64,000 bases of DNA from a bacterium (GTDB taxonomy: Bacteria; Electryoneota; RPQS01), in the NCBI GenBank assembly GCA_016703065.1, contig JADJCU010000001.1:296526-360525 (forward strand). Reading direction: 5' to 3'. Both the position numbers and the translations under genes were made by a program. Positions within the stretch are counted from its first letter, which is position 1. Each line of letters opens with the position of its first letter. The notes beneath the pieces are model-generated. The model searched no databases. It was not told where the DNA came from and saw only the letters and a list, made by a program, of their open reading frames with translations. Below, piece after piece: positions 48,271 through 64,000 of the stretch.

Positions 48271-48280
48271 ACTTTCTCCC

Positions 48281-48304
48281 GGTGGCACCCGCTGCGGGTG
48301 CCCC
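48281..48304. repeat. family B palindromic repeat, copy 1
   Basis: GGTGGCACCCGCTGCGGGTGCCCC, with core inverted repeat GGCACCCGC-T-GCGGGTGCC. Near-identical copies lie at 59246, 59874 and 62841. Confidence 0.85.
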
Positions 48305-48326
48305 GATCTCTATGCGATACCAACAC

Positions 48327-48360
48327 AAAAGCCCCGCGAAAAATCGCGGGGCTTCTTCTG
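48327..48360 (+). terminator. rho-independent terminator of the CDF gene
   Basis: Hairpin GCCCCGCGA-AAAA-TCGCGGGGC followed by TTCTTCT. Confidence 0.8.
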
Positions 48361-48404
48361 ATCTCCCCCCAAAGTTGCCGCAACTTTGGGGGGACTAAGG
48401 GGGG
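48360..48404 (+). repeat. family A nested-hairpin repeat, copy 1
   Basis: GATCTCCCCCCAAAGTTGCCGCAACTTTGGGGGGACTAAGGGGGG, with a 14-bp perfect stem and a second G6 tract. Confidence 0.85.
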
Positions 48405-48412
48405 CTTCAGGG

Positions 48413-50769: not shown

Positions 50770-52200
50770 ATGCAGGCAACGTTATTAGTAGTGGACGACG
50801 ACCGCGATATTCGCGAAATCATTCGGCAGGTCGCGGAAATCAAAGACTACGAAGTTATTGAGGCTGAAGATGCTACGGTCGGCCTCGAAAAAATGCGCAC
50901 GATGGCACCCGATCTGTCCATCATAGACGTCGGATTGCCGGGCGGAATTGACGGTGTTGAACTCTGTCAACAGATTCATGAAGTCGCACCGCAACATCCC
51001 GTGCTCATTATCAGCGGACAGGCCACGCCCGAAAAGGCCGTGGAGGCGCTCAAGCACGGCGCATTTGACTACCTCGGCAAGCCGCTTAATCTCGAAAAGC
51101 TGATGCTCTTGGTTGATCGCGCCCTCTCGAATGTCGCCACCGCCCGCGAAATCGAGCGCGTCGCCGATGAACGCAAGGCCGTCTACGGCTTTGACCGTCT
51201 GGTCGGCGACTGCAAGCAGATGAATCAGGTCAAAGAGACGGGCCGCAAAGTCGCCGCTGTCCCCTTTGCTACCGTACTGCTAACAGGTGAATCGGGAACT
51301 GGCAAGGAACTCGTGGCGCATGCGGTTCACCTGGCCTCGCCCAATGCCGACAAACCGTTCGTCGAAGTGAACTGCGCCGCCATGCCCGAGAATCTACTCG
51401 AAGCTGAGCTCTTCGGCTATGAGAAGGGCGCGTTCACCGATGCCAAACAACGCAAACGCGGACTCTTTGAAATCGCCGCCGGCGGGACCTTCTTCCTCGA
51501 CGAAATCGGCGAAATGCCGCTCAATCTGCAAGTGAAGCTGCTCAAGGTCATCGAAGAGCGCACCTTCCGCAGAGTCGGGGGCACCCAGCCATTGCAAATG
51601 AAATTCAGATTGATCGCCGCGACCAATGCCAATCTGATGGAGCAGATTGAGTCCGGGAAATTCCGCCGCGATCTCTACTATCGACTTGCCGTCTTCTCGA
51701 TTCATCTGCCGCCGCTGCGGGAACGCGCTCACGATACCGTCGACATCGCGCTCCACTTTATCGAAAAATTCAACCGCGAATTCGGCAAAACCATCAAGGG
51801 TATCGCTCCTGATGCTGAGCGGCTGCTCGTCAGCTACAACTGGCCCGGCAATATCCGCGAACTTCGTAATGCCGTCGAGCGCGCCGTGCTGATTGGCGCT
51901 GGACCCTATATCCAAGCGGCCGACCTGGCCATCCTGCCGATGCAGGAGACGCCCACCCCGAGTCTCGCGTCTGTCCCCGAAAAGGACGTCGACGCGATGC
52001 TCAACAATCCCGACGGCTTCTCCATTGACGTCCCCTCAACCGGTGTCAACATGGAAGAAGTTGAAAAGCAGCTCATCCGAATTGCCATGCGCCACTCTCA
52101 CAACAATGCCTCCGCCGCCGCGAGATTCCTGCGCATGACCCGTGAAACACTCCGCTACCGCCTGAAAAAATACGGCATCCGCGAAGAAATCGAATCCTAA
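50770..52200 (+). CDS. sigma-54-dependent response regulator (NtrC family enhancer-binding protein)
   Basis: Receiver domain ('LLVVDDDRDIRE..DLSIIDVGLPG'), an AAA+ sigma-54 interaction domain ('GESGTGKELVA', 'GAFTDA', 'TFFLDEIGEM', 'RRDLYYRL') and a C-terminal Fis-type HTH. Start moved to ATG 50770. Confidence 0.9.
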   Translation: MQATLLVVDDDRDIREIIRQVAEIKDYEVIEAEDATVGLEKMRTMAPDLSIIDVGLPGGIDGVELCQQIHEVAPQHPVLIISGQATPEKAVEALKHGAFDYLGKPLNLEKLMLLVDRALSNVATAREIERVADERKAVYGFDRLVGDCKQMNQVKETGRKVAAVPFATVLLTGESGTGKELVAHAVHLASPNADKPFVEVNCAAMPENLLEAELFGYEKGAFTDAKQRKRGLFEIAAGGTFFLDEIGEMPLNLQVKLLKVIEERTFRRVGGTQPLQMKFRLIAATNANLMEQIESGKFRRDLYYRLAVFSIHLPPLRERAHDTVDIALHFIEKFNREFGKTIKGIAPDAERLLVSYNWPGNIRELRNAVERAVLIGAGPYIQAADLAILPMQETPTPSLASVPEKDVDAMLNNPDGFSIDVPSTGVNMEEVEKQLIRIAMRHSHNNASAAARFLRMTRETLRYRLKKYGIREEIES

Positions 52201-52263
52201 CCAGCGTACCGCTGGACCTAATCCGCTGACGCAAGCGCTTCTTGACTTGACTCGAAATACAAA

Positions 52264-52300
52264 GCGGCCCGCACAACTCGTGCGGGCCGTCCTGTTTCTG
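52264..52300 (+). terminator. rho-independent terminator of the EBP gene
   Basis: Hairpin GGCCCGCAC-AACTC-GTGCGGGCC followed by GTCCTGTTTCT. Confidence 0.7.
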
Positions 52301-52346
52301 ATCTCCTCCCAAACCTGCGTCGCAGCTTTGGGAGGATTAAGGGGGG
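52300..52346 (+). repeat. family A nested-hairpin repeat, copy 2
   Basis: GATCTCCTCCCAAACCTGCGTCGCAGCTTTGGGAGGATTAAGGGGGG. The C6 arm is CCTCCC and its partner is GGGAGG, a compensatory pair. Confidence 0.85.
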
Positions 52347-52414
52347 TCAAACCGTAGTCACGCCCGCCGCCCAAAAGCGTGCAGCGCAGCGCACTGGGTC
52401 CAGCGGCACGCCGG

Positions 52415-53834
52415 TTACTTCGTTCTTACGAAATCAATCCGGCGATTCTGCTGACGACCTTCGTCGGTGTCGTTCGTCGCAATCGGCTTATCCGGACCGA
52501 AGCCCTTCGTCGTCATGCGTGTCGCTTCGATACCCTTGGCCGCCAACCACGCCTTTACACTTTCCGCGCGCGCCAGCGAGAGCTTCTGATTCATCCCTTT
52601 CTTGCCGCGATTGTCCGTGTGGCCCTGAATCTCAACTTCAAGGTCCGGATTCAGCTTCAGCGTATTGTAAGCCTTCATCAAAATCGCTTCCGACTCCGGC
52701 TTGATGTCCGACTTCGCGGTCTCAAACACGATGCCTTCAAGCGTAATCGCCTGACCCACTTCAGTCACCACGAGCTTCTCGACGTCGTCCTCAGGATTCA
52801 GCGGATTGTCGCCCTTCTTCACTTCCGTGCCGTCGTCAATCGAACCCTTGTCCGTGTCGTTATTCAGCGGATCCGTCTTGTGCGTGTTCACTTCAACACC
52901 ATCCGACAGTCCGTCGCCGTCGCAATCCGCGCGCTTCGGATCCGTCTTGTGCGTCGTCAACTCCGCGCCGTCCTGCAGACCATCGCCGTCCGTATCCGGA
53001 TTTAGCGGATCGGTCGTATACGTCGTGACCTCTTCGCCGTCCTTCAGGCCGTCACCATCCGTATCGGCCTTCAGCGGATCGGTCTTGTGCGTCATCACTT
53101 CCGCGCCGTCCGTCAAACCATCGCCATCCGTATCCGGATTCTTCGGATCGGTCTTCAGCGTGTAATACTCTTCGCCGTCCTTCAGGCCGTCACCGTCCGT
53201 GTCCGGATTCTTCGGATCGAGCCCCAGCTTCTTCTCGTCGCGGTCTGTGATGCCGTCGCCGTCGGTATCCTTGTTCGGATTACCGCGGTGAATACGCAGA
53301 CCGGCCAGAATATTCATGTACGCATCGTCCGTGTCGTCATAGACAGGGTTGATGTCATCCGAGAAGATCATGTTGTAGCCGCCGTGCACGTCAAGCGAGA
53401 TATTCGTCAAGATGATATTGAACACCCAGGCCCAGGGGTACCATGGCATTCCACGAATCCCGCTTCGCTTCCGGGTCGGCCGCCGCCGGTACATCCGACA
53501 CATCGTGATGCAGCATGCCTAAACCCGCGTAGACAAACGGGAACCACTTCTCCTGATGGAACGGCGCGAACCGGGCGCGCAGGTCAATCGGCATGACTTC
53601 GCCCGAGTAGTCGTCGGCTTTCAACCGCGCGAACGCGATCCCTAATTCGAGCTGCAGCGGGTCCAAAATCGGGTAGGCGAAGCTGTGCCGCACGTTTAGA
53701 CCCATGTCCGCACCCTCGGATTCGTTGGTCGGCATGGCGATGCCGGCGCCGAGGTAACCCTCGAGGCCCAGCTCGGTAAACTGCGCCGTCGCAATCAGCG
53801 GCACCAACAGCGACAGCAAAACAATACTTTTCAT
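52415..53834 (-). pseudogene. OmpA-family outer-membrane protein with thrombospondin type-3 repeats, frameshifted
   Basis: The signal MKSIVLLSLLVPLIATAQ plus an 8-strand-barrel-like N-domain lie in ORF 53391..53846. After a shift at about 53418-53440 the protein continues ('NIILTNISLDVHGGY..'). It then has about 7 'DTDGDGL(K/T/Q/S)DG(E/A)E' calcium-binding repeats and an OmpA C-terminal peptidoglycan-binding domain ('GHTDNRGKKGMNQKLSLARAESV'). Confidence 0.7.
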
Positions 53835-53960: not shown

Positions 53961-54030
53961 GGTCTCCCCCCAAAGCTTGCCCTCGAACGTAGTGAAGGGT
54001 CGTCCGCGGTTTTGGGGGGACAAAGGGGGG
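53961..54030 (+). repeat. family A nested-hairpin repeat, copy 3 (with ~24-nt internal insertion)
   Basis: GGTCTCCCCCCAAA[GCTTGCCCTCGAACGTAGTGAAGG]GTCGTCCGCGGTTTTGGGGGGACAAAGGGGGG. The flanks (CGCCCGCCCTC.. and ..CCTC) match copy 6. Confidence 0.8.
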
Positions 54031-54202
54031 CCTCGGAAACATGTACGCCGAGCCGGGTTAAGTGCAACGCAACCCGGCCCGAATCTGCAAGGGCGGCAGA
54101 ACAGGCGGCCCCCGCAGCGGAGAGTTTCTCCAATTCCTTCGTTGCCTTGCGCTTCCCCTTTGTCTGCCATACATTGCTTATACAAACTGGAGGAGCACAA
54201 CC

Positions 54203-58135: not shown

Positions 58136-59221
58136 CTATCGGCTCGGATGCCTCAACAGTGAGCGGTCCAGCGCAGGGATGTTCGGCCGTCCGCACAGGG
58201 CCATCGCGATCTTCAGTTCGGTCAACAGCAGATCGACGATGCGATTCACCCCTGCCGCGCCCGAGACCGTCAGCCCCCAGATATAGGGCCGACCGATCAG
58301 CACCGCCGTCGCACCGGCGGCCAGCGCTTTCAGGATGTCCGTCCCGCGCCGAATTCCCCCGTCGAACAGCACCGGAATCCGGTCATCTACGGCATGAGCC
58401 ACCTCCGGAAGCATTTCGATTGTTGCGGGTGCCGTATCGAGGTTCCGCGCCCCGTGATTGCTCACGATGAGTCCGTGTACACCCACATGCACGGCCTGTT
58501 CCGCGTCCTTGGGATGCAGGATCCCTTTCAAGAGCACCGGAATCTTTGCCACGCCGAGCATCCATTCGATGTCCTTCCACGTCATCGCCGGATTTACCAG
58601 CGGGTAGTAGATGCCGTCGAGGTCGGTACCATGTCCCGTGACTTTCTGTGCTTCGGGGACATCCCGCAGCATCGCCCGTTCCAGACCCGCTGGCAGGGCG
58701 AATCCCGCGCGGGTTTCGCGCACGCGGTTTCCCAGCACCGGCGTATCGACTGTAATGATGAGCGCCTTCGCTCCCGCTCGTTCGACCCGGGCGATGAGCT
58801 CTTTCGTGCATTCCCGATCGCGCTGCACGTAGAGCTGATACCACAGCCGCGCCTCCGGCACCTCTTTGGCGATCTCCTCAATCGTCAGGTTCGCCATCGT
58901 GCTCACGCAGTACGTCGCATCGGCCCACACCGCCCCCTGTGCCGTCTCGATCTCCCCTTGCGGGTGAAACAGCTTATGATAGGCCACCGGCGCGAGCAGA
59001 ATCGGATGCGCATAGCGCTGTTCGAGGAACGACACGCTCGTGTCGATTTGCGACACGTCGCGCAGCACATTTGGCAGCAGCTGAATGCGGTCGAACGCCT
59101 GTCGATTCTCGGCCAGCGTCAGTTCATCCCCGGCGCCGCTATCGAGGTATTCCCACGCCATCGCCGTCATCCGCTCCCGCGCCGGCGCGGCGAAATCGTT
59201 CACTTGCAAAGTTGGATACAT
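58136..59221 (-). CDS. FMN-dependent alpha-hydroxy acid dehydrogenase/oxidase (L-lactate dehydrogenase / glycolate oxidase family)
   Basis: 'AWEYLDSGAGDE', 'ITVDTPVLGNR', 'KGILHPKDA', 'VSNHGARNLD' and 'DGGIRRGTDILKALAAGA'. Start moved to ATG 59221; the longer ORF merely reads through repeat B2. Confidence 0.85.
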   Translation of the reverse strand: MYPTLQVNDFAAPARERMTAMAWEYLDSGAGDELTLAENRQAFDRIQLLPNVLRDVSQIDTSVSFLEQRYAHPILLAPVAYHKLFHPQGEIETAQGAVWADATYCVSTMANLTIEEIAKEVPEARLWYQLYVQRDRECTKELIARVERAGAKALIITVDTPVLGNRVRETRAGFALPAGLERAMLRDVPEAQKVTGHGTDLDGIYYPLVNPAMTWKDIEWMLGVAKIPVLLKGILHPKDAEQAVHVGVHGLIVSNHGARNLDTAPATIEMLPEVAHAVDDRIPVLFDGGIRRGTDILKALAAGATAVLIGRPYIWGLTVSGAAGVNRIVDLLLTELKIAMALCGRPNIPALDRSLLRHPSR

Positions 59222-59245
59222 AGTAAAGTCTTCTCTTTTCTTCCC

Positions 59246-59269
59246 GGCGGCACCCGCTGCGGGTGCCCC
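59246..59269. repeat. family B palindromic repeat, copy 2
   Basis: GGCGGCACCCGCTGCGGGTGCCCC, in the 5' leader of the 58136-59221 gene. Confidence 0.85.
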
Positions 59270-59811
59270 GCCTATCAACTACAAGGTCGTGCTTCCAAGT
59301 ACGACGCACTTCTCAAACAATCGGCCACTCCGGTATTGCCGCGTCAATCTCTTTCATCAATCGAATCGTCTCGCCCAGCGCCATCACCGTTTTCGCATAG
59401 TGCCGAATCTCATCAAACGCGAGCGTCCGCTCTTTGCGGTCCTTGAGCCACTTGTTGCAAACCTGATAACCCCCGACATGAAACTCCCACACTTCAGGCG
59501 CAACAGGCTCGAACCACTGCTTCTTGTTGATATACACGCGCCGCAGTTGATCATTGTATTCCACCTTCACCACCATGTTATCTCCCTTTTCAGGAAACAC
59601 CACCGGAGCTTTGTCAAGTTTCGGATGCTCCAAGAGATGATACTGCACCAACTCATACCCCAGCGGCACCAGCTTGCTGAACAATTCAAGATTCGATGTC
59701 AGCGGCACACGCGGAAAATCAATTTTCAAAAACTCCTTATACCGCTCCCGATAAGTCGGCGCATGAAACACCGCGTAGATATAATAAAAAATGTCTTCGG
59801 GGCCAAACTCT

Positions 59812-59857
59812 GATCTCCCCCCAAATCTGTCCGCAGATTTGGGGGGATTAAGGGGGG
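59812..59857 (+). repeat. family A nested-hairpin repeat, copy 4 (inside the RM coding sequence)
   Basis: GATCTCCCCCCAAATCTGTCCGCAGATTTGGGGGGATTAAGGGGGG, translated on the minus strand as 'PLNPPKSADRFGGRSE'. Confidence 0.85.
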
Positions 59858-59873
59858 TTGCCTTCTTCTTCGC

Positions 59874-59897
59874 GGCGGCACCCGCTGCGGGTGCCCC
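59874..59897. repeat. family B palindromic repeat, copy 3 (inside the RM coding sequence)
   Basis: GGCGGCACCCGCTGCGGGTGCCCC, translated as 'GAPAAGAA'. Confidence 0.85.
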
Positions 59898-61916
59898 GCT
59901 TTTCCCCCTCGCTTTAGCGGGGGGGGCAGGGGGGGGTAATCCACTTCCCCCCTCCTCCACAAACGTCAACCCCAACTTCCCCGCAAACTCCGCCACAAAC
60001 TTCGCATCCAAATTCGGCTTCCGCGGTGAGCCGTCGGCGGGGTAAAGGTAGAGAGGGAAAAAGTAATTGACCTCTTTCATTGAAACGGTATGATGTGTCG
60101 AAATTTGCCTCGTACACAATACATGCTCGAAACCGCGACTAATCTCCACTGTCCTAGTTGTTGACAGTGCAAGGTTTGGTCCCGCGAGCATGTGTTGCAT
60201 AACTTCGATGCGGGGCCGCTCAATTTCAGGAGGATAATAGAAGATGCATCTCATATCAAAAGGCCGGTAGAGAACTTGTGGGAATGAAGCATCTTCTTTG
60301 ACAGCCTTCTTTAGTTGTTTGACCATGCGCGCCTGGACTTCGTCATCGGTGATTCGAAATGCGCGCAAAGTGTCATCTTCAGTCTTGATCGCGGAGTTGA
60401 TTCTCTTGGTCAACACTCTTCTCGATCAAAGTCTATTAAGAAGGAATCGTTGGCAGTAACCAACCCCACAGAATTGGTATTGAATACTTTTTGAACAGAG
60501 GCGCCTTCGTTGTATTCGTCACCTTCTTCAGATTCAGACTTCGTAAACATGTAGAACGGTTTGCTCGGTTCAATCCTCTGCCATTCCGTATCCTTGTGGT
60601 CGTGCGCACCCAGCCACTCATATTTACTCTCTCGCTTACCCCATAACTCGCCTCGCTGAATAACAGCGTCGTCATTGTCGTGAGATTTGACAAAAAGGCC
60701 AACGGATACACCCTGCATAATATCAAAAACATTCTCGTCCTTGCCGCCGTCAGGAGATTGCTCTTTCTTCTTGCTATTGCCATGCAAATCTAACAAGTAA
60801 AGTTCATCAAACGTGCGTTGCAAACTGCGCCTCATCCCGCGAAACGTTGGATTGTCAAGATATCCATGACTTGTTATGAACGCTAAGATACCTTCTGCTC
60901 TTGTATCCCCAACTGCCCATTGCGCTATCCGCCATTGCCCATACCGTAAGAACTTTACATAATCATCCTGTAGCCACTTGGGGTTCTTTTCACCAAGCGG
61001 CTCCCCGTCAACAAAATAGTAATCTTTAATCAGTTTGCTAATCCACGGGCCGCTATTTGCCGAGTGGCCTGAATAAGGTGGATTACCAAGCACAACCATG
61101 ATCGGCAAACGATTCTTGACCGTTGCGGCGGCGTTTGCTTCTTGCGATATGATCCTCATTGTACCAAAGAACTCTTCGGCTTCATAGATCGTCTCCTCCA
61201 AACTATTCGTCAGATACACATGCAGACGCTGATCCTTTTCAATCTCGTACCCCCACTTTTCGCGGAGCTTCGGGTCAAGGTCGTGTCCGGCCAATTGCAT
61301 CGCCAACTTCAGATGCGCAACCGCATACGGAGCCATCTGCAACTCAAAGCCGTAGATGCGCGGAATCAAATGGTCTTTGACAAACGCCTGCCACGACCCC
61401 GCGTCGTTACGCTCCATGAACCGGTTGCGAATCAAATCCACGACCGCATAGAGAAACGTCCCCGTCCCGCACGCCGGATCAAGAATCAATATTTTGGGCA
61501 GTTTCCGCTTGACAAATTTATCTCCCTCTTTGACCTCAACTTCAATCGTGGACGTATCGGCCAAGCCGTCCTTCAAGCCGAACTTTTCCTTTAGCAGAAT
61601 ATCCACCGACCGCACGATATACGACACCACCGGCTCCGGCGTGTAATAGACACCGCGCCGCTTGCGCTCCTTGGGATCGTATTCAGACAGAAACGTCTCG
61701 TAGAAATGCAGAATCGGGTCTTCCTGCTTCGTGCGCTTCCCAAATGAAGCCAAAATCGCCTCAATATCCGAATGCGCCAGCACGGCCGTCAAGTCATCCA
61801 CAAACCCGATAAACGGCTCATCTTCGAGCGAGGTGGAGTGCATGGTCTCGAAGAGATTGCGGAGGAAGGGATTGCTCTTGGGGATTTCGCGGGCTGCTCC
61901 GGTGCGGGTGAACTCC

Positions 61917-61962
61917 GGTCTCCCCCCAAGTCCGTCTGCGGATTTGGGGGGACTAAGGGGGG
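61917..61962 (+). repeat. family A nested-hairpin repeat, copy 5 (inside the RM coding sequence)
   Basis: GGTCTCCCCCCAAGTCCGTCTGCGGATTTGGGGGGACTAAGGGGGG, translated as 'PLSPPKSADGLGGRP'. Confidence 0.85.
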
Positions 61963-62737
61963 CGTCTGCGTGTTGTATTCGCGCCGCAAACAATCCATAT
62001 CCGAGGGTTTGCGCGAACATATCCGCGAATTGCGCGTCGGTAATGTCCGGCAACAAGGTGCGCTCAAAAGCGGACTTCAGGTCCTGCATCAGTTCGGACG
62101 GTGTCCCGTCCGCAAACGTATTCGTAATCACCCGGTCAATGTTCTTGCACAAACCGGCCATGCGGGAAGCCAGCTCTTTGGGCGAATTAATTTCCCGCAC
62201 GTCCTGAGCCAGAAACGACTCGAGTAACTCGGTGAGTTCAGCTTCGCCATCCTTCAGAATTTTAATCTTCTTACCGGACTTCTTCGCCAGCCGCACCGTC
62301 CGCCGCTTTTCACCCTTGACATACCAGCGGAACTCGAGATAATCGGTCAAGATGAGATTCGGAAGCTGCAAGTAGCGTTCAAGCTGCTCTGACTTCTCAA
62401 TCTTGCTCAACTCTTCGCCGACCTTTTTGGTCTCGACATACCCCACCGGCAGATGAATCTGTCCCCGCACCTTTCTTCGAATCACAAAATCCGGCGCGCC
62501 GACCTTGATCTGCTTAGGGTCGTTCGACACGAGCAACTCTTTGCCGAATGATTCCAATAAGCCCTGAATCGCAGGCCTGTGCGTGTGCTCCGTATCATCT
62601 CCCAGCGCGATCTTCTCTTGCAGGGATTTCAAATAGTTCTTCAGCGCGTCCGGCATGTGCCTCAATTCCAATCTGTGATTCCGCTTTCCTCCTAATCTAC
62701 TCCCCTCACCCCACTTCCGCAAGCGCGCCCGCCCTCA

Positions 62738-62783
62738 GGTCTCCCCCCAAAATCGTCTGCGGTTTTGGGGGGACAAAGGGGGG
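62738..62783 (+). repeat. family A nested-hairpin repeat, copy 6
   Basis: GGTCTCCCCCCAAAATCGTCTGCGGTTTTGGGGGGACAAAGGGGGG, in the 5' leader of the RM gene. Confidence 0.85.
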
Positions 62784-62840
62784 CCTCCGCTCTCCCCGTC
62801 CTCCGTTCACGCGGGAAGGGCCGGCGGATGGGGTTCCCCC

Positions 62841-62864
62841 GGCGGCACCCGCTGCGGGTGCCCC
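62841..62864. repeat. family B palindromic repeat, copy 4
   Basis: GGCGGCACCCGCTGCGGGTGCCCC, in the 5' leader of the RM gene. Confidence 0.85.
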
Positions 62865-62913
62865 AATCCTTTGTTCTCGCCTCTCTATCTCTTGCCCAAA
62901 TGTATAACATATT

Positions 62914-62942
62914 AATTATGTTACTCTGCCTATGCTTGACAA
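62914..62942 (-). promoter_or_regulatory. sigma-70-like promoter facing the RM gene
   Basis: The minus strand reads TTGTCA (62937-62942), a 17-nt spacer, then ATAATT (62914-62919). The -10 lies inside the palindrome TAACATA-ATTAA-TATGTTA. Confidence 0.4.
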
Positions 62943-62964
62943 ATCCCGATTTATGTATTATATT
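62936..62964 (+). promoter_or_regulatory. near-consensus sigma-70 promoter with no downstream ORF
   Basis: TTGACA (62936-62941), a 17-nt spacer, then TATATT (62959-62964). Its -35 overlaps the -35 of the divergent promoter. It points at the 3' end of the convergent kinase gene. Confidence 0.45.
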
Positions 62965-63135
62965 AGCGTCAGCTATCCAAACAAAACCGCCCCGGAGGAA
63001 CCCGGCGGAAAAGGCCAACCACACGGCCTGAACGGGCGGTCCAGTCTGATCAGCAAAGAACCTGTCGTGCTGGCACGCCCCTCCGAGTACCCAAGGGGAA
63101 ACCGAGACCACTACCACAGACGACCGCTTAGAAAA

Positions 63136-64000
63136 TCACTTCGGAAGCCGCAGCGAAAACACACTTCCCCGTCCAAGCTGCGTATCCACATGCACCGTCC
63201 CGCCATGCGCAAGCGCCGCATGTTTTACAATCGCCAACCCTAACCCCGTCCCACCGTACTTGCGATTGCGCGACGCCTCAATCCGATAAAAGCGCTCGAA
63301 TATCCGCGATAGATGCTTCTCCGCAATCCCCGGCCCGCGATCCTCTACCGCAATCACCAACACCCCCTCCGCGACTCCCGCCCGCACGTCGATCCGCGTC
63401 CCCTCCGGACTGTATTTCGCCGCATTGTCAATCAGATTCACCACCGCCTGCCGGATCAAAAACGCGTTCACCGAGGCCGTAACCTCCGGCGAACAGTCGA
63501 GCACCACCTGCTGACCGCGCGAGTCCGCCGCCGAGGACGCCGCATCCACCGCATCCTTCAAGATCGGCAAGATCGCCTGCCGCTCCGCGGCGAGCTTCTG
63601 CGCATCCGACACCTGCTCGATCCGGGCCAACGTCAACAAATCCTCGATAATCGACTGTAAATAGTCTGCCTGCCGGGACATAATGTCGAGGAATCGCTCC
63701 GCATCACGCGGATTCTCCATCGCCCCCTCGCGCAGCGTCTCGATCGATCCGATAATCGCCGTCACCGGTGTCTTGAGCTCGTGACTCGCGTTTGCCACAA
63801 ACTCCCGCCGCGTCTCCTCAATCCGCCGCATCTGCGTCACGTCACTAATCACAATCACCACACCCAACACCTCGCCCACCGCGATAATCGGGTTCCCCCG
63901 CATCTGCAGAATCCGCTCGTCCGGCATGAAGCGCGCAACCTCGCGTTCGACAGGTCCCCCGGCCGTCAGTGTGTCGCGAATGAAACGATGAATGTCCGTG
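63136..64000 (-). CDS. sensor histidine kinase (PAS-HisKA-HATPase_c), N-terminus outside window
   Basis: H-box 'NASHELKTPVTAIIGSIETL', N-box 'LIDNAAKYS' and G-boxes 'EDRGPGI' and 'GGTGLGLAIV'. The frame stays open upstream of the listed ATG (63927) to the window end. Confidence 0.8.
   Translation of the reverse strand, partial: TDIHRFIRDTLTAGGPVEREVARFMPDERILQMRGNPIIAVGEVLGVVIVISDVTQMRRIEETRREFVANASHELKTPVTAIIGSIETLREGAMENPRDAERFLDIMSRQADYLQSIIEDLLTLARIEQVSDAQKLAAERQAILPILKDAVDAASSAADSRGQQVVLDCSPEVTASVNAFLIRQAVVNLIDNAAKYSPEGTRIDVRAGVAEGVLVIAVEDRGPGIAEKHLSRIFERFYRIEASRNRKYGGTGLGLAIVKHAALAHGGTVHVDTQLGRGSVFSLRLPK

What the first reader, a model, noticed from the sequence alone, without database searches (positions are those of the whole stretch)
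61917..61962. A family A repeat sits in frame inside the methyltransferase half of the type IIG RM gene
Copy 5 of the repeat has the same sequence class as the intergenic copies. It lies within ORF 60410..62722 and is translated on the minus strand as '..IQHADA-PLSPPKSADGLGGRP-EFTRTG..' without a stop or frame change. The flanking protein sequence looks like ordinary MmeI-family sequence (before '..NPFLRNLFETM'). Palindromic elements that insert into genes and are tolerated as extra peptide loops are known from Rickettsia (RPEs). Seeing the same behaviour here, in a defence gene, is unusual. All six copies happen to be open in that minus-strand frame ('PL(S/N/C)PPK..GG(R/D)').
Basis: partly seen in the sequence, partly recalled or inferred. 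Interest (0 to 1): 0.65.

Follow-up and report, generated by a model that had tools for sequence, protein, structure and literature searches.

The report
Hairpin repeat translated inside restriction gene
A 45-base selfish hairpin repeat sits exactly in frame in a surface loop of a restriction-modification enzyme gene, in a loop that related bacteria have filled with other hairpin repeats of the same type, and in relatives such repeats form the ends of small nuclease-gene cassettes that also sit in frame inside genes.

Summary
Window 61919-61963 is a full copy of a dispersed hairpin repeat, family A, which has 6 copies in the window against 0 expected by chance. It forms exactly 15 codons (APLSPPKSADGLGGR) of the minus-strand ORF 60410-62722.

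The insert is lineage-specific. 107 of 120 homologues have only 4-8 residues at this point, and 13 close relatives have 12-57. In all 8 genes read as DNA the extra segment is a GC hairpin repeat. Seven have the form C-run, loop, G-run, short spacer, G-run, in both orientations. One orthologue holds the window's other repeat, family B.

AlphaFold places the insert in a low-confidence coil between two helices, upstream of the methyltransferase catalytic domain.

Three corrections apply:
- The enzyme is DrdV/MmeI-like type IIL with a Type ISP-like specificity domain.
- The gene is broken by a 2-nt frameshift near 60413.
- "Open in all copies" is trivial, since 4-6 of 6 frames are open.

Further findings:
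- A second loop (59812-59936) holds three more repeats in frame.
- The same repeat design occurs in frame in real genes of other phyla.
- In relatives it forms the terminal inverted repeats of small DUF559 (Vsr-like nuclease) cassettes, which themselves sit in frame in the restriction gene, ValRS and MetH.

Best reading: a solo, MITE-like end of such a cassette. This is RPE-like behaviour in a new element type.

The parts
61919..61963 (+). Family A hairpin repeat, the finding. It reads TCT-C6-AAGTCCG-TCTG-CGGATTT-G6-ACTAA-G6-C, and is translated on the minus strand as 15 in-phase codons, APLSPPKSADGLGGR.
   Evidence: The hairpin is supported by covariation across 22 copies.
60410..62722 (-). 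Upstream ORF of the restriction-modification gene (770 aa from TTG; the likely ATG start is at 62656). It holds a PD-ExK nuclease, a helical region and a gamma-class N6-adenine methyltransferase (DPACGTG, NPPY).
60410..60421 (-). +2 frameshift (GAGTTG to GAGTGTTG, an apparent GT duplication) that splits the gene. A GTG start overlaps the TGA stop.
59313..60416 (-). Downstream ORF of the same gene (367 aa): Type ISP-like C-terminal specificity domain.
   Evidence: (PF18135, 5e-80)
59812..59858 (+). Second in-frame family A copy, in the specificity-domain loop (site 2). Peptide TPLNPPKSADRFGGR.
59866..59904 (.). Family B hairpin (GGCACCCGCTGCGGGTGCC), in frame at site 2. Peptide GAPAAGAAAKK.
59904..59936 (+). 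Third hairpin repeat at site 2 (CCCCCTCGCTTTAGCGGGGGGGGCAGGGGGGGG), in frame. Peptide LPPPAPPAKARG.
   Evidence: The same subfamily sits at the same site in L120.
62738..62784 (+). Intergenic family A copy just upstream of the gene.
62833..62871 (.). Intergenic family B copy upstream of the gene.
59238..59276 (.). Family B copy just downstream of the gene.
48359..48405 (+). Intergenic family A copy between convergent genes. A family B copy lies next to it at 48273-48311.
52301..52347 (+). Intergenic family A copy, slightly degenerate, between convergent genes.
53985..54031 (+). Partial family A copy, 3' half only.

Best explanation
Window 61919-61963 is a copy of a small selfish hairpin repeat. 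It landed in, or replaced an earlier repeat in, a short loop between two helices of a DrdV/MmeI-like type IIL restriction-modification enzyme. It is read through as 15 extra residues.

Why it is tolerated (inferred):
- Its length is a multiple of three.
- It has no stop codon in most frames.
- Its C-runs and G-runs translate to Pro-Pro and Gly-Gly, which favour coil.

This loop and a second loop in the specificity domain are recurrent landing sites for such repeats in this gene family.

The repeat belongs to a design found in several phyla: a C-run, a loop or inner stem, a G-run, a 2-6-nt A/T-rich spacer, then a second G-run. In relatives this design forms the terminal inverted repeats of ~430-500-nt cassettes that encode a DUF559 (Vsr-like PD-(D/E)XK) nuclease.

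I therefore read the window copy as a solo, non-autonomous (MITE-like) end of such a cassette, moved in trans or left behind when the cassette was lost.

Shown: repeat identity, in-frame position, lineage specificity, loop location, recurrent colonisation of the site, and the link between DUF559 cassettes and this repeat design in relatives and metagenomes.

Inferred: that family A itself depends on a DUF559 nuclease, and how it moves.
For: Repeat family and chance.

Hairpin under constraint: across 22 copies, 94% of cells pair, 5 pairs change on both sides, and 0 of 500 shuffles reach the observed score.

Exact 15-codon insert.

Lineage specificity: 107 of 120 homologues have 4-8 residues and 13 have 12-57.

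DNA at the same site in 7 homologues plus the window:
- L118, L122, L123, L124 and L125 hold a C-run/G-run hairpin in the + orientation.
- L120 and the window hold one in the - orientation.
- L117, a syntenic orthologue, holds the family B hairpin.
- L123 holds a decayed copy next to an intact one.
- Empty sites are seen in L126 and L127.

Synteny with L117, L120 and L122.

Insert is a coil with low pLDDT.

Enrichment: 11 of 20 strict-pattern repeats in 208 kb of loci fall inside the 13% that is restriction gene.

Other phyla:
- At least 116 genomic loci carry the 19-mer, nearly all with an upstream C-run.
- 43 of 131 hits are spanned by ORFs of at least 60 codons on each side.
- Three spanning ORFs were confirmed by Pfam: ValRS, MetH and UbiD. 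GltB and PKS are read from the sequence only.

DUF559 link:
- In L123 and L122 a DUF559 domain sits in frame at site 2, between near-perfect 30-nt inverted repeats. These are of the same subfamily as the solo element at site 1 in L118, L122, L123 and L124.
- The same layout occurs in ValRS and MetH.
- In a sample of DUF559 genes chosen without regard to repeats, 44 of 138 flank windows hold such hairpins against 5 of 93 control windows. 17 genes have them on both sides, and by my reading of the listing most of these pairs are in inverted orientation.
Against: - No DUF559 gene lies in the 64-kb window, nor in the 8-kb loci around family A copies of the closest MAGs. The link for family A rests on shared design and shared sites, not on a cassette with family A ends.
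- Family A has a longer inner stem than the ends seen on DUF559 cassettes.
- The orientation of the ends differs between lineages. The G-run tails point inward in L122 and L123, and outward in ValRS and MetH.
- No target-site duplication or empty allele at high identity was found, so insertion was not caught directly.
- The gene here is frameshifted, so this insert may never have been tested by selection in a working enzyme.
- The neighbour-joining tree has no support values. The number of independent insertions at the site is therefore uncertain: a single old insertion with turnover is not excluded.
Confidence: 0.6

Rival explanations
1. Footprint model. The copy is not an independently moving mini-element. 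It is the scar left when a full DUF559 cassette, once inserted in frame in this loop, was deleted between its inverted ends.
For: Full cassettes sit in frame in the other hot-spot loop of the same gene in L122 and L123. The window, L120 and others have only hairpins there. Solo elements at site 1 match the cassette ends in the same genomes.
Against: Most family A copies are intergenic and numerous in related MAGs, with no cassette nearby. A cassette at every such place is less economical. No cassette has been seen at site 1 in any of the 120 homologues.
Confidence: 0.15
2. REP/REPIN-like element moved by another enzyme (for example a RAYT or IS200/IS605-type single-strand transposase) and unrelated to DUF559. 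Under this reading the shared C-run/G-run design is convergence on stable GC hairpins.
For: Its size (45 nt), hairpin with compensatory changes, mostly intergenic positions at gene ends and the shared + orientation of all six window copies resemble REPs. No DUF559 gene lies near family A copies.
Against: The conserved second G-run and A/T spacer are shared with DUF559 cassette ends. The 5' GTAG-type REP signature is not seen in the family alignment. No RAYT was looked for, so this rival is not excluded.
Confidence: 0.15
3. The insert matters at the nucleic-acid level for the restriction gene. It could be a slippage-prone homopolymer tract giving phase variation, or a recombination point for swapping gene segments, rather than passive selfish DNA.
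For: Repeats are enriched in and around the gene: 6 of the 10 A and B copies in the window, and 11 of 20 across loci. Run lengths differ between homologues and the frame is restored each time. Nucleotide identity to L117 jumps from about 78% to 92% exactly at the repeat cluster near 59819. Both junctions of a ~10-kb inversion carry family A copies.
Against: Runs of 6 are short for efficient phase variation. The actual frameshift in the window is not at a repeat. The enrichment can also be explained by weak selection on a dispensable gene with permissive loops.
Confidence: 0.07
4. The insert is tolerated only because the gene is already dead. It is an insertion into a pseudogene, and the open frame is chance.
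For: There is a 2-nt frameshift in the window gene and an in-frame stop in the closest relative L122. With 4 of 6 frames open and a length of 3n, an open insert is not improbable.
Against: Relatives with intact ~1100-aa ORFs carry equivalent in-frame inserts at the same loop (P0003-P0008, P0012, P0020). Run-length changes there are frame-compensated. All catalytic motifs in the window gene are intact, which suggests recent inactivation.
Confidence: 0.03

Closest known systems
Rickettsia palindromic elements (RPEs)
   Same: Dispersed palindromic repeats found both between genes and in frame inside unrelated protein-coding genes. They add a peptide judged compatible with the protein fold (review PMC10969869, citing Ogata et al. 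2000 and 2002).
   Different: RPEs are about 100-150 bp and confined to Rickettsia, and no associated enzyme is known. Here the unit is 30-45 nt and built from C and G runs. It occurs in several phyla and, in relatives, forms the ends of a nuclease cassette.
REP / REPIN elements with RAYT transposases
   Same: Size of 20-45 nt, an imperfect hairpin with compensatory changes, high copy number, and positions mostly at gene ends (PMC3116915).
   Different: REPs are extragenic by definition and are linked to a RAYT gene. Here copies are translated inside genes, no RAYT link was tested, and the linked gene in relatives is DUF559.
Vsr-like (EDxHD) homing endonucleases, including 'fractured genes' and I-Bth0305I
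   Same: A Vsr/DUF559-related PD-(D/E)XK nuclease serves as the mobility gene of a selfish element placed inside host genes (PMC2677866; PMC3424549 groups VSR and DUF559 with an intron homing endonuclease).
   Different: Those nucleases ride in introns or between split-intein halves, so the host protein is restored by splicing. Here the DUF559 domain and its hairpin ends are simply translated as part of the host protein, with no intein or intron seen.
Small dispersed repeats of Nostocaceae (Elhai et al. 2008, recalled from memory; paper not readable here) and mobile GC clusters / 'byps' of yeast mitochondria (from memory)
   Same: Very small (about 20-55 nt) GC-rich hairpin repeats that move, nest in each other and occur inside coding regions.
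   Different: Different sequences and hosts. Byps are skipped by the ribosome, whereas these inserts are 3n long and stop-free, so ordinary translation suffices. The comparison was not tested here.
DrdV / MmeI type IIL restriction-modification enzymes (the host gene)
   Same: A single chain with an N-terminal PD-ExK nuclease, a helical region, a gamma-class N6-adenine methyltransferase and a specificity domain. Best structural match is DrdV 7lo5 at E 1e-26.
   Different: The specificity domain matches the Type ISP C-terminal family. The window copy is frameshifted.

Membership tests
Rickettsia palindromic elements (RPE) | Dispersed palindromic repeat present both intergenically and in frame in protein-coding genes | tested here: met
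Rickettsia palindromic elements (RPE) | About 100-150 bp unit, sequence homology to RPE families, Rickettsia host | tested here: not met
   The unit is 45 nt. The genome context is Calditrichota-like, with T9SS domains and synteny with GCA_020637415.1. Homology to RPE sequences was not tested. This is the same behaviour, not the same family.
REP / REPIN | 20-45 nt imperfect palindrome in many copies, with the hairpin conserved through compensatory changes | tested here: met
REP / REPIN | Extragenic location | tested here: not met
   2 of 6 family A copies in the window, and about a third of the hits in other phyla, lie inside ORFs.
REP / REPIN | Linked RAYT (Y1 transposase) gene flanked by the repeats | not tested
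   The window ORFs were not scanned for PF01797, and the rest of the genome is not available.
MITE (non-autonomous derivative of an autonomous element) | Ends shared with an autonomous, enzyme-encoding element | tested here: inconclusive
   Met for the CCCCTCCGTTYACGGGGGGG subfamily in L122 and L123: the solo copy at site 1 matches the inverted ends of the DUF559 cassette at site 2. No cassette with family A ends was found.
MITE (non-autonomous derivative of an autonomous element) | Target-site duplication | tested here: not met
   No consistent duplication flanks the aligned copies. No high-identity empty site was available.
Intein / homing-endonuclease insertion in a host protein | Splicing domains (Hint blocks) or an intron that removes the insert | tested here: not met
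   Pfam finds only DUF559 inside ValRS, MetH and the specificity domain, with no Hint or intein match. Rfam finds no intron or other family in the window.
Type IIL/IIG restriction-modification enzyme (MmeI/DrdV-like) | PD-ExK nuclease motif at the N-terminus | tested here: met
   APDFVI...GYVETK is conserved across the alignment.
Type IIL/IIG restriction-modification enzyme (MmeI/DrdV-like) | Gamma-class N6-adenine methyltransferase motifs (DPACGTG, NPPY) and the fold | tested here: met
Type IIL/IIG restriction-modification enzyme (MmeI/DrdV-like) | Nuclease, methyltransferase and specificity domain in one intact polypeptide | tested here: not met
   The window gene is split by a +2 frameshift. 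Homologues are single ORFs of ~1100 aa.
Type IIL/IIG restriction-modification enzyme (MmeI/DrdV-like) | Cleavage at a fixed distance from an asymmetric site, and methylation activity | not testable with these tools
   Needs biochemistry or methylome data.

The most novel reading that the evidence does not exclude
The C-run/G-run hairpin repeats, including family A at 61919-61963, are the ends and solo derivatives of a previously undescribed class of selfish cassettes. Each cassette is a ~0.45-kb unit encoding a DUF559 (Vsr-like) nuclease between hairpin inverted repeats. It inserts in frame into loops of host proteins (a restriction enzyme, ValRS, MetH) in several phyla. It needs no intein or intron, because its ends are pre-adapted to be translated as Pro/Gly linkers.
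Probability: 0.35. Interest if true: 0.8.

Novelty: new variant of a known kind. Interest (0 to 1): 0.62.

Why it matters
In-frame selfish palindromes are textbook only for Rickettsia. Here the same behaviour appears in a free-living, Calditrichota-like lineage, with an element three times smaller.

One protein loop has been filled again and again by different repeats in related genomes. That makes it a natural experiment on which protein sites accept random Pro/Gly-rich inserts.

The repeat design is shared with the ends of DUF559 cassettes that sit in frame in essential enzymes. This gives a concrete, testable candidate for what moves such very small repeats. The question has stayed open for REP-sized elements that lack a RAYT.

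It would also assign a role to DUF559, an abundant domain of unknown function.

For annotation, it explains recurrent PLNPPKGG / GGTKGG-type segments in predicted proteins.

Tried and rejected
- Rfam, gathering threshold on the whole window and permissive threshold on 59000-63200: no credible family.
- Literature search for the DNA and peptide strings: no paper.
- Elhai et al. 2008 on small dispersed repeats could not be opened by DOI or PMC id. That comparison rests on memory.
- The search for related loci with a DUF559 alignment failed because no stretch was conserved enough. It was replaced by a degenerate DNA pattern for FRRQHPIG.
- A protein search with the DUF559 segment returned almost only free-standing ORFs of 110-160 aa. 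In-frame fusion is therefore the minority state, and that search did not recover host-fusion cases.
- The 'ancestral peptide' reading is rejected.
- 'Chance match' is rejected.
- 'Open frame in all copies is meaningful' is rejected.
- 'G-quadruplex' was considered and dropped: only two or three G-runs lie on one strand.
- 'Translational bypass' was considered unnecessary, because the insert is 3n long and stop-free.
- The bare 19-mer has a non-trivial chance expectation in 596 Gb, about 17 by my own estimate. Singletons in odd taxa (for example Enterobacter L035) may be chance. The argument rests on hits with the upstream C-run and on genomes with several hits.
- L011 would have given the orthologous site in a close MAG, but the locus ends about 20 nt short of it.

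Full report
**Observation**

The plus strand at 61917-61963 reads GGTCTCCCCCCAAGTCCGTCTGCGGATTTGGGGGGACTAAGGGGGGC. A pattern built on it matches three places at up to 3 mismatches, against 0.00 expected in 100 dinucleotide-preserving shuffles. Seed-and-extend finds a six-member family, here called family A, at 48359, 52301, 53985 (3' half only), 59812, 61917 and 62738.

The design is a 5' TCT, a C6 run, a 7-9-bp inner stem with a 2-4-nt loop, a G6 run that pairs with the C6 run, a spacer AYWAA, a second G6 run, then C. A second family, B (hairpin GGCACCCGCTGCGGGTGCC), has four copies.

Across 22 family A copies from the window and related metagenome-assembled genomes, the 13-bp hairpin pairs in 94% of cells. 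Five pairs change on both sides, and 0 of 500 shuffles reach the observed covariation. The hairpin, not only the sequence, is therefore conserved.

**Position in the gene**

The 45 nt at 61919-61963 are exactly 15 in-phase codons of minus-strand ORF 60410..62722, giving APLSPPKSADGLGGR.

The ORF has a PD-ExK nuclease motif, N6_Mtase and MmeI_Mtase matches (residues 334-573) and the DPACGTG and NPPY motifs. The next ORF, 59313..60416, is a Type ISP C-terminal specificity domain (5e-80).

Homologues are single ~1100-aa proteins. In the window the two ORFs overlap in GTGTTGA. Deleting GT near 60413 gives one 1113-aa ORF that aligns end to end with P0004, P0003 and P0005. The gene therefore carries a +2 frameshift.

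By sequence and by fold the closest solved enzyme is the type IIL enzyme DrdV, followed by LlaBIII, LlaGI, PglX and MmeI.

**Is it an insertion?**

In an alignment of 120 homologues, the stretch between FAARxxH and FxRxGAAxEIPK is 4-8 residues in 107 sequences. It is 12-57 residues in 13, all among the closest relatives, and those sequences are unrelated to one another.

The AlphaFold2 model has mean pLDDT 81.7 and pTM 0.81. It shows the insert as a coil (model residues 232-250, pLDDT about 57-70) between helices 207-231 and 251-257, upstream of the catalytic fold.

**A hot spot**

I fetched the DNA of nine homologues. L117, L120 and L122 are syntenic with the window: a sigma-54 regulator on one side, and FMN dehydrogenase, MarR and YceI on the other.

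At the same codon position:
- L118, L122, L123 and L124 hold CCCCTCCG-TTYA-CGGGGGGG-spacer-GGGGGGG in the gene's orientation.
- L125 holds a variant of that element.
- L120 and the window hold the reverse orientation (C-run, spacer, C-run, hairpin, G-run).
- L117 holds a clean family B hairpin.
- L123 has a decayed copy next to an intact one.
- L126 and L127 show the empty site.

Run lengths differ between homologues, yet the frame is always restored. That argues for selection on the reading frame in the intact genes.

A neighbour-joining tree, without support values, places the insert-bearing genes in two clades separated by insert-free ones. At least two gains, or gain followed by precise loss, plus replacements are therefore likely. 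The exact count is open.

A second loop in the specificity domain behaves the same way. The window has three in-frame repeats there: family A at 59812-59858, family B at 59866-59904 and a third type at 59904-59936. Homologues have others.

With a strict pattern, 11 of 20 repeats in 208 kb of loci lie in the 13% that is restriction gene. This sample is partly biased by how the loci were chosen. Without the site-1 hits it is 7 of 16.

**Why it is tolerated**

The core is stop-free in 4 of 6 frames, and in 6 of 6 with an ACAAA spacer.

The likely reasons for tolerance are a length of 3n, C and G runs that code Pro-Pro and Gly-Gly, and a loop position. This is inference.

**Wider distribution**

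The taxa include Cyanobacteria, Bacteroidota, Chloroflexi, Calditrichota and others. Nearly all hits have a C5-6 run 2-25 nt upstream.

By my estimate the bare 19-mer should occur about 17 times by chance in 596 Gb, so some singletons may be noise.

MAGs CAZPKG01 and CAZHAK01 are labelled Alphaproteobacteria. They carry near-identical family A copies and share about 80% nucleotide identity with window genes.

Of 131 hits, 43 are spanned by ORFs of at least 60 codons on each side. These include glutamate synthase with two inserts, a polyketide synthase, ValRS, MetH, a UbiD-like protein and secretion-tail domains. Most read as (A)PLNPPKGG(K). Pfam confirms ValRS, MetH and UbiD.

No paper in the library contains these strings.

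**Link to DUF559**

In P0007 (L123) and in the second ORF of L122, a DUF559 domain sits in frame at site 2 of the restriction gene.

Its DNA is bounded by near-perfect 30-nt inverted repeats. In L123 these are CCCCCTCCGTTCACGGGGGGGATGGGGGGGG and the reverse complement of CCCCTCCGTTTACGGGGGGGATTGGGGGGG, 431 nt apart. This is the same subfamily as the solo element at site 1 in L118, L122, L123 and L124.

ValRS (L044, L067) and MetH (L022) hold DUF559 in frame between such hairpins as well. Four motif-selected loci hold free-standing DUF559 genes next to them.

As a sample not chosen by repeat, I scanned metagenome contigs for the DUF559 motif FRRQHPIG. Of 69 sites with enough flank, 17 have such hairpins on both sides and 10 on one side. 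That is 44 of 138 flank windows, against 5 of 93 control windows. By my reading of the listing, the pairs are mostly in inverted orientation and bound a unit of about 430-500 nt.

Most DUF559 proteins are free-standing ORFs of 110-160 aa. DUF559 is grouped with Vsr and with an intron homing endonuclease (PMC3424549). Vsr-like homing endonucleases are known from 'fractured genes' (PMC2677866). I found no paper that describes hairpin-bounded or in-frame DUF559 cassettes.

**Limits**

- No DUF559 gene lies in the window or next to family A copies in the nearest MAGs, so the link for family A is by design and shared sites.
- End orientation differs between lineages.
- No target-site duplication or fresh empty site was found.
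- This copy of the gene is broken.

**Verdict**

It is RPE-like behaviour by a much smaller element of a different type, at a recurrent landing site, with a plausible but unproven nuclease partner.

Noticed in passing
window 59812-59936: A second in-frame hot spot in the specificity-domain ORF holds three adjacent repeats: family A, family B and a third hairpin type. Together they add about 40 residues. Homologues have other repeats, or a whole DUF559 cassette, at the same loop.
   Followed up: yes
window 60410-60421: The restriction-modification gene is split by a +2 frameshift (apparent GT duplication). The GTG start of the downstream ORF overlaps the TGA stop of the upstream one. The closest relative, L122, is broken by an in-frame stop about 45 codons further on.
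   Followed up: yes
L123 12870-13360; L122 12774-13240; L044 and L067 (ValRS); L022 (MetH): DUF559 (Vsr-like nuclease) domains lie in frame inside host proteins, bounded by inverted C-run/G-run hairpins. No intein or intron signature was found.
   Followed up: partly
window 52200-52415 and 62722-63136: Relative to L117, L120 and L122, the ~10-kb block from the restriction gene to the OmpA-like gene is inverted in the window. Both junctions carry family A copies (52301, 62738), both in the same orientation.
   Followed up: partly
window 59320-59819 versus L117 12749-13248: The last 500 nt of the gene are 92% identical to the orthologue L117, against about 78-79% for the rest. The boundary falls at the repeat cluster, which may mark a recombination breakpoint.
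   Followed up: no
window 48359, 52301, 53985, 59812, 61917, 62738: All six family A copies have the C-run first on the plus strand, whatever the direction of nearby genes. The bias is weak (about 1 in 32) and could relate to replication direction.
   Followed up: no
L117 10693-10711: The syntenic orthologue has the window's family B hairpin at exactly the codon position where the window has family A.
   Followed up: yes
L014 (uncultured bacterium, glutamate synthase large subunit): Two separate in-frame APLNPPKGG inserts lie in one essential enzyme, each followed by a second hairpin-derived segment (SSIPPSGGTGG and SSPLGGTEGG).
   Followed up: no
L011, L021, L024, L026, L043, L050, L071, L080 (records CAZHAK01 and CAZPKG01): These MAGs are titled 'Alphaproteobacteria'. 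They share about 77-80% nucleotide identity and synteny with the window and with a Calditrichota MAG (L122), so the label looks wrong.
   Followed up: no
window 52851-53219: Four tandem copies of a 69-nt unit lie inside an ORF that matches the region of L122 annotated TSP3_bac/OmpA. This is probably an ordinary repeat-domain protein.
   Followed up: no
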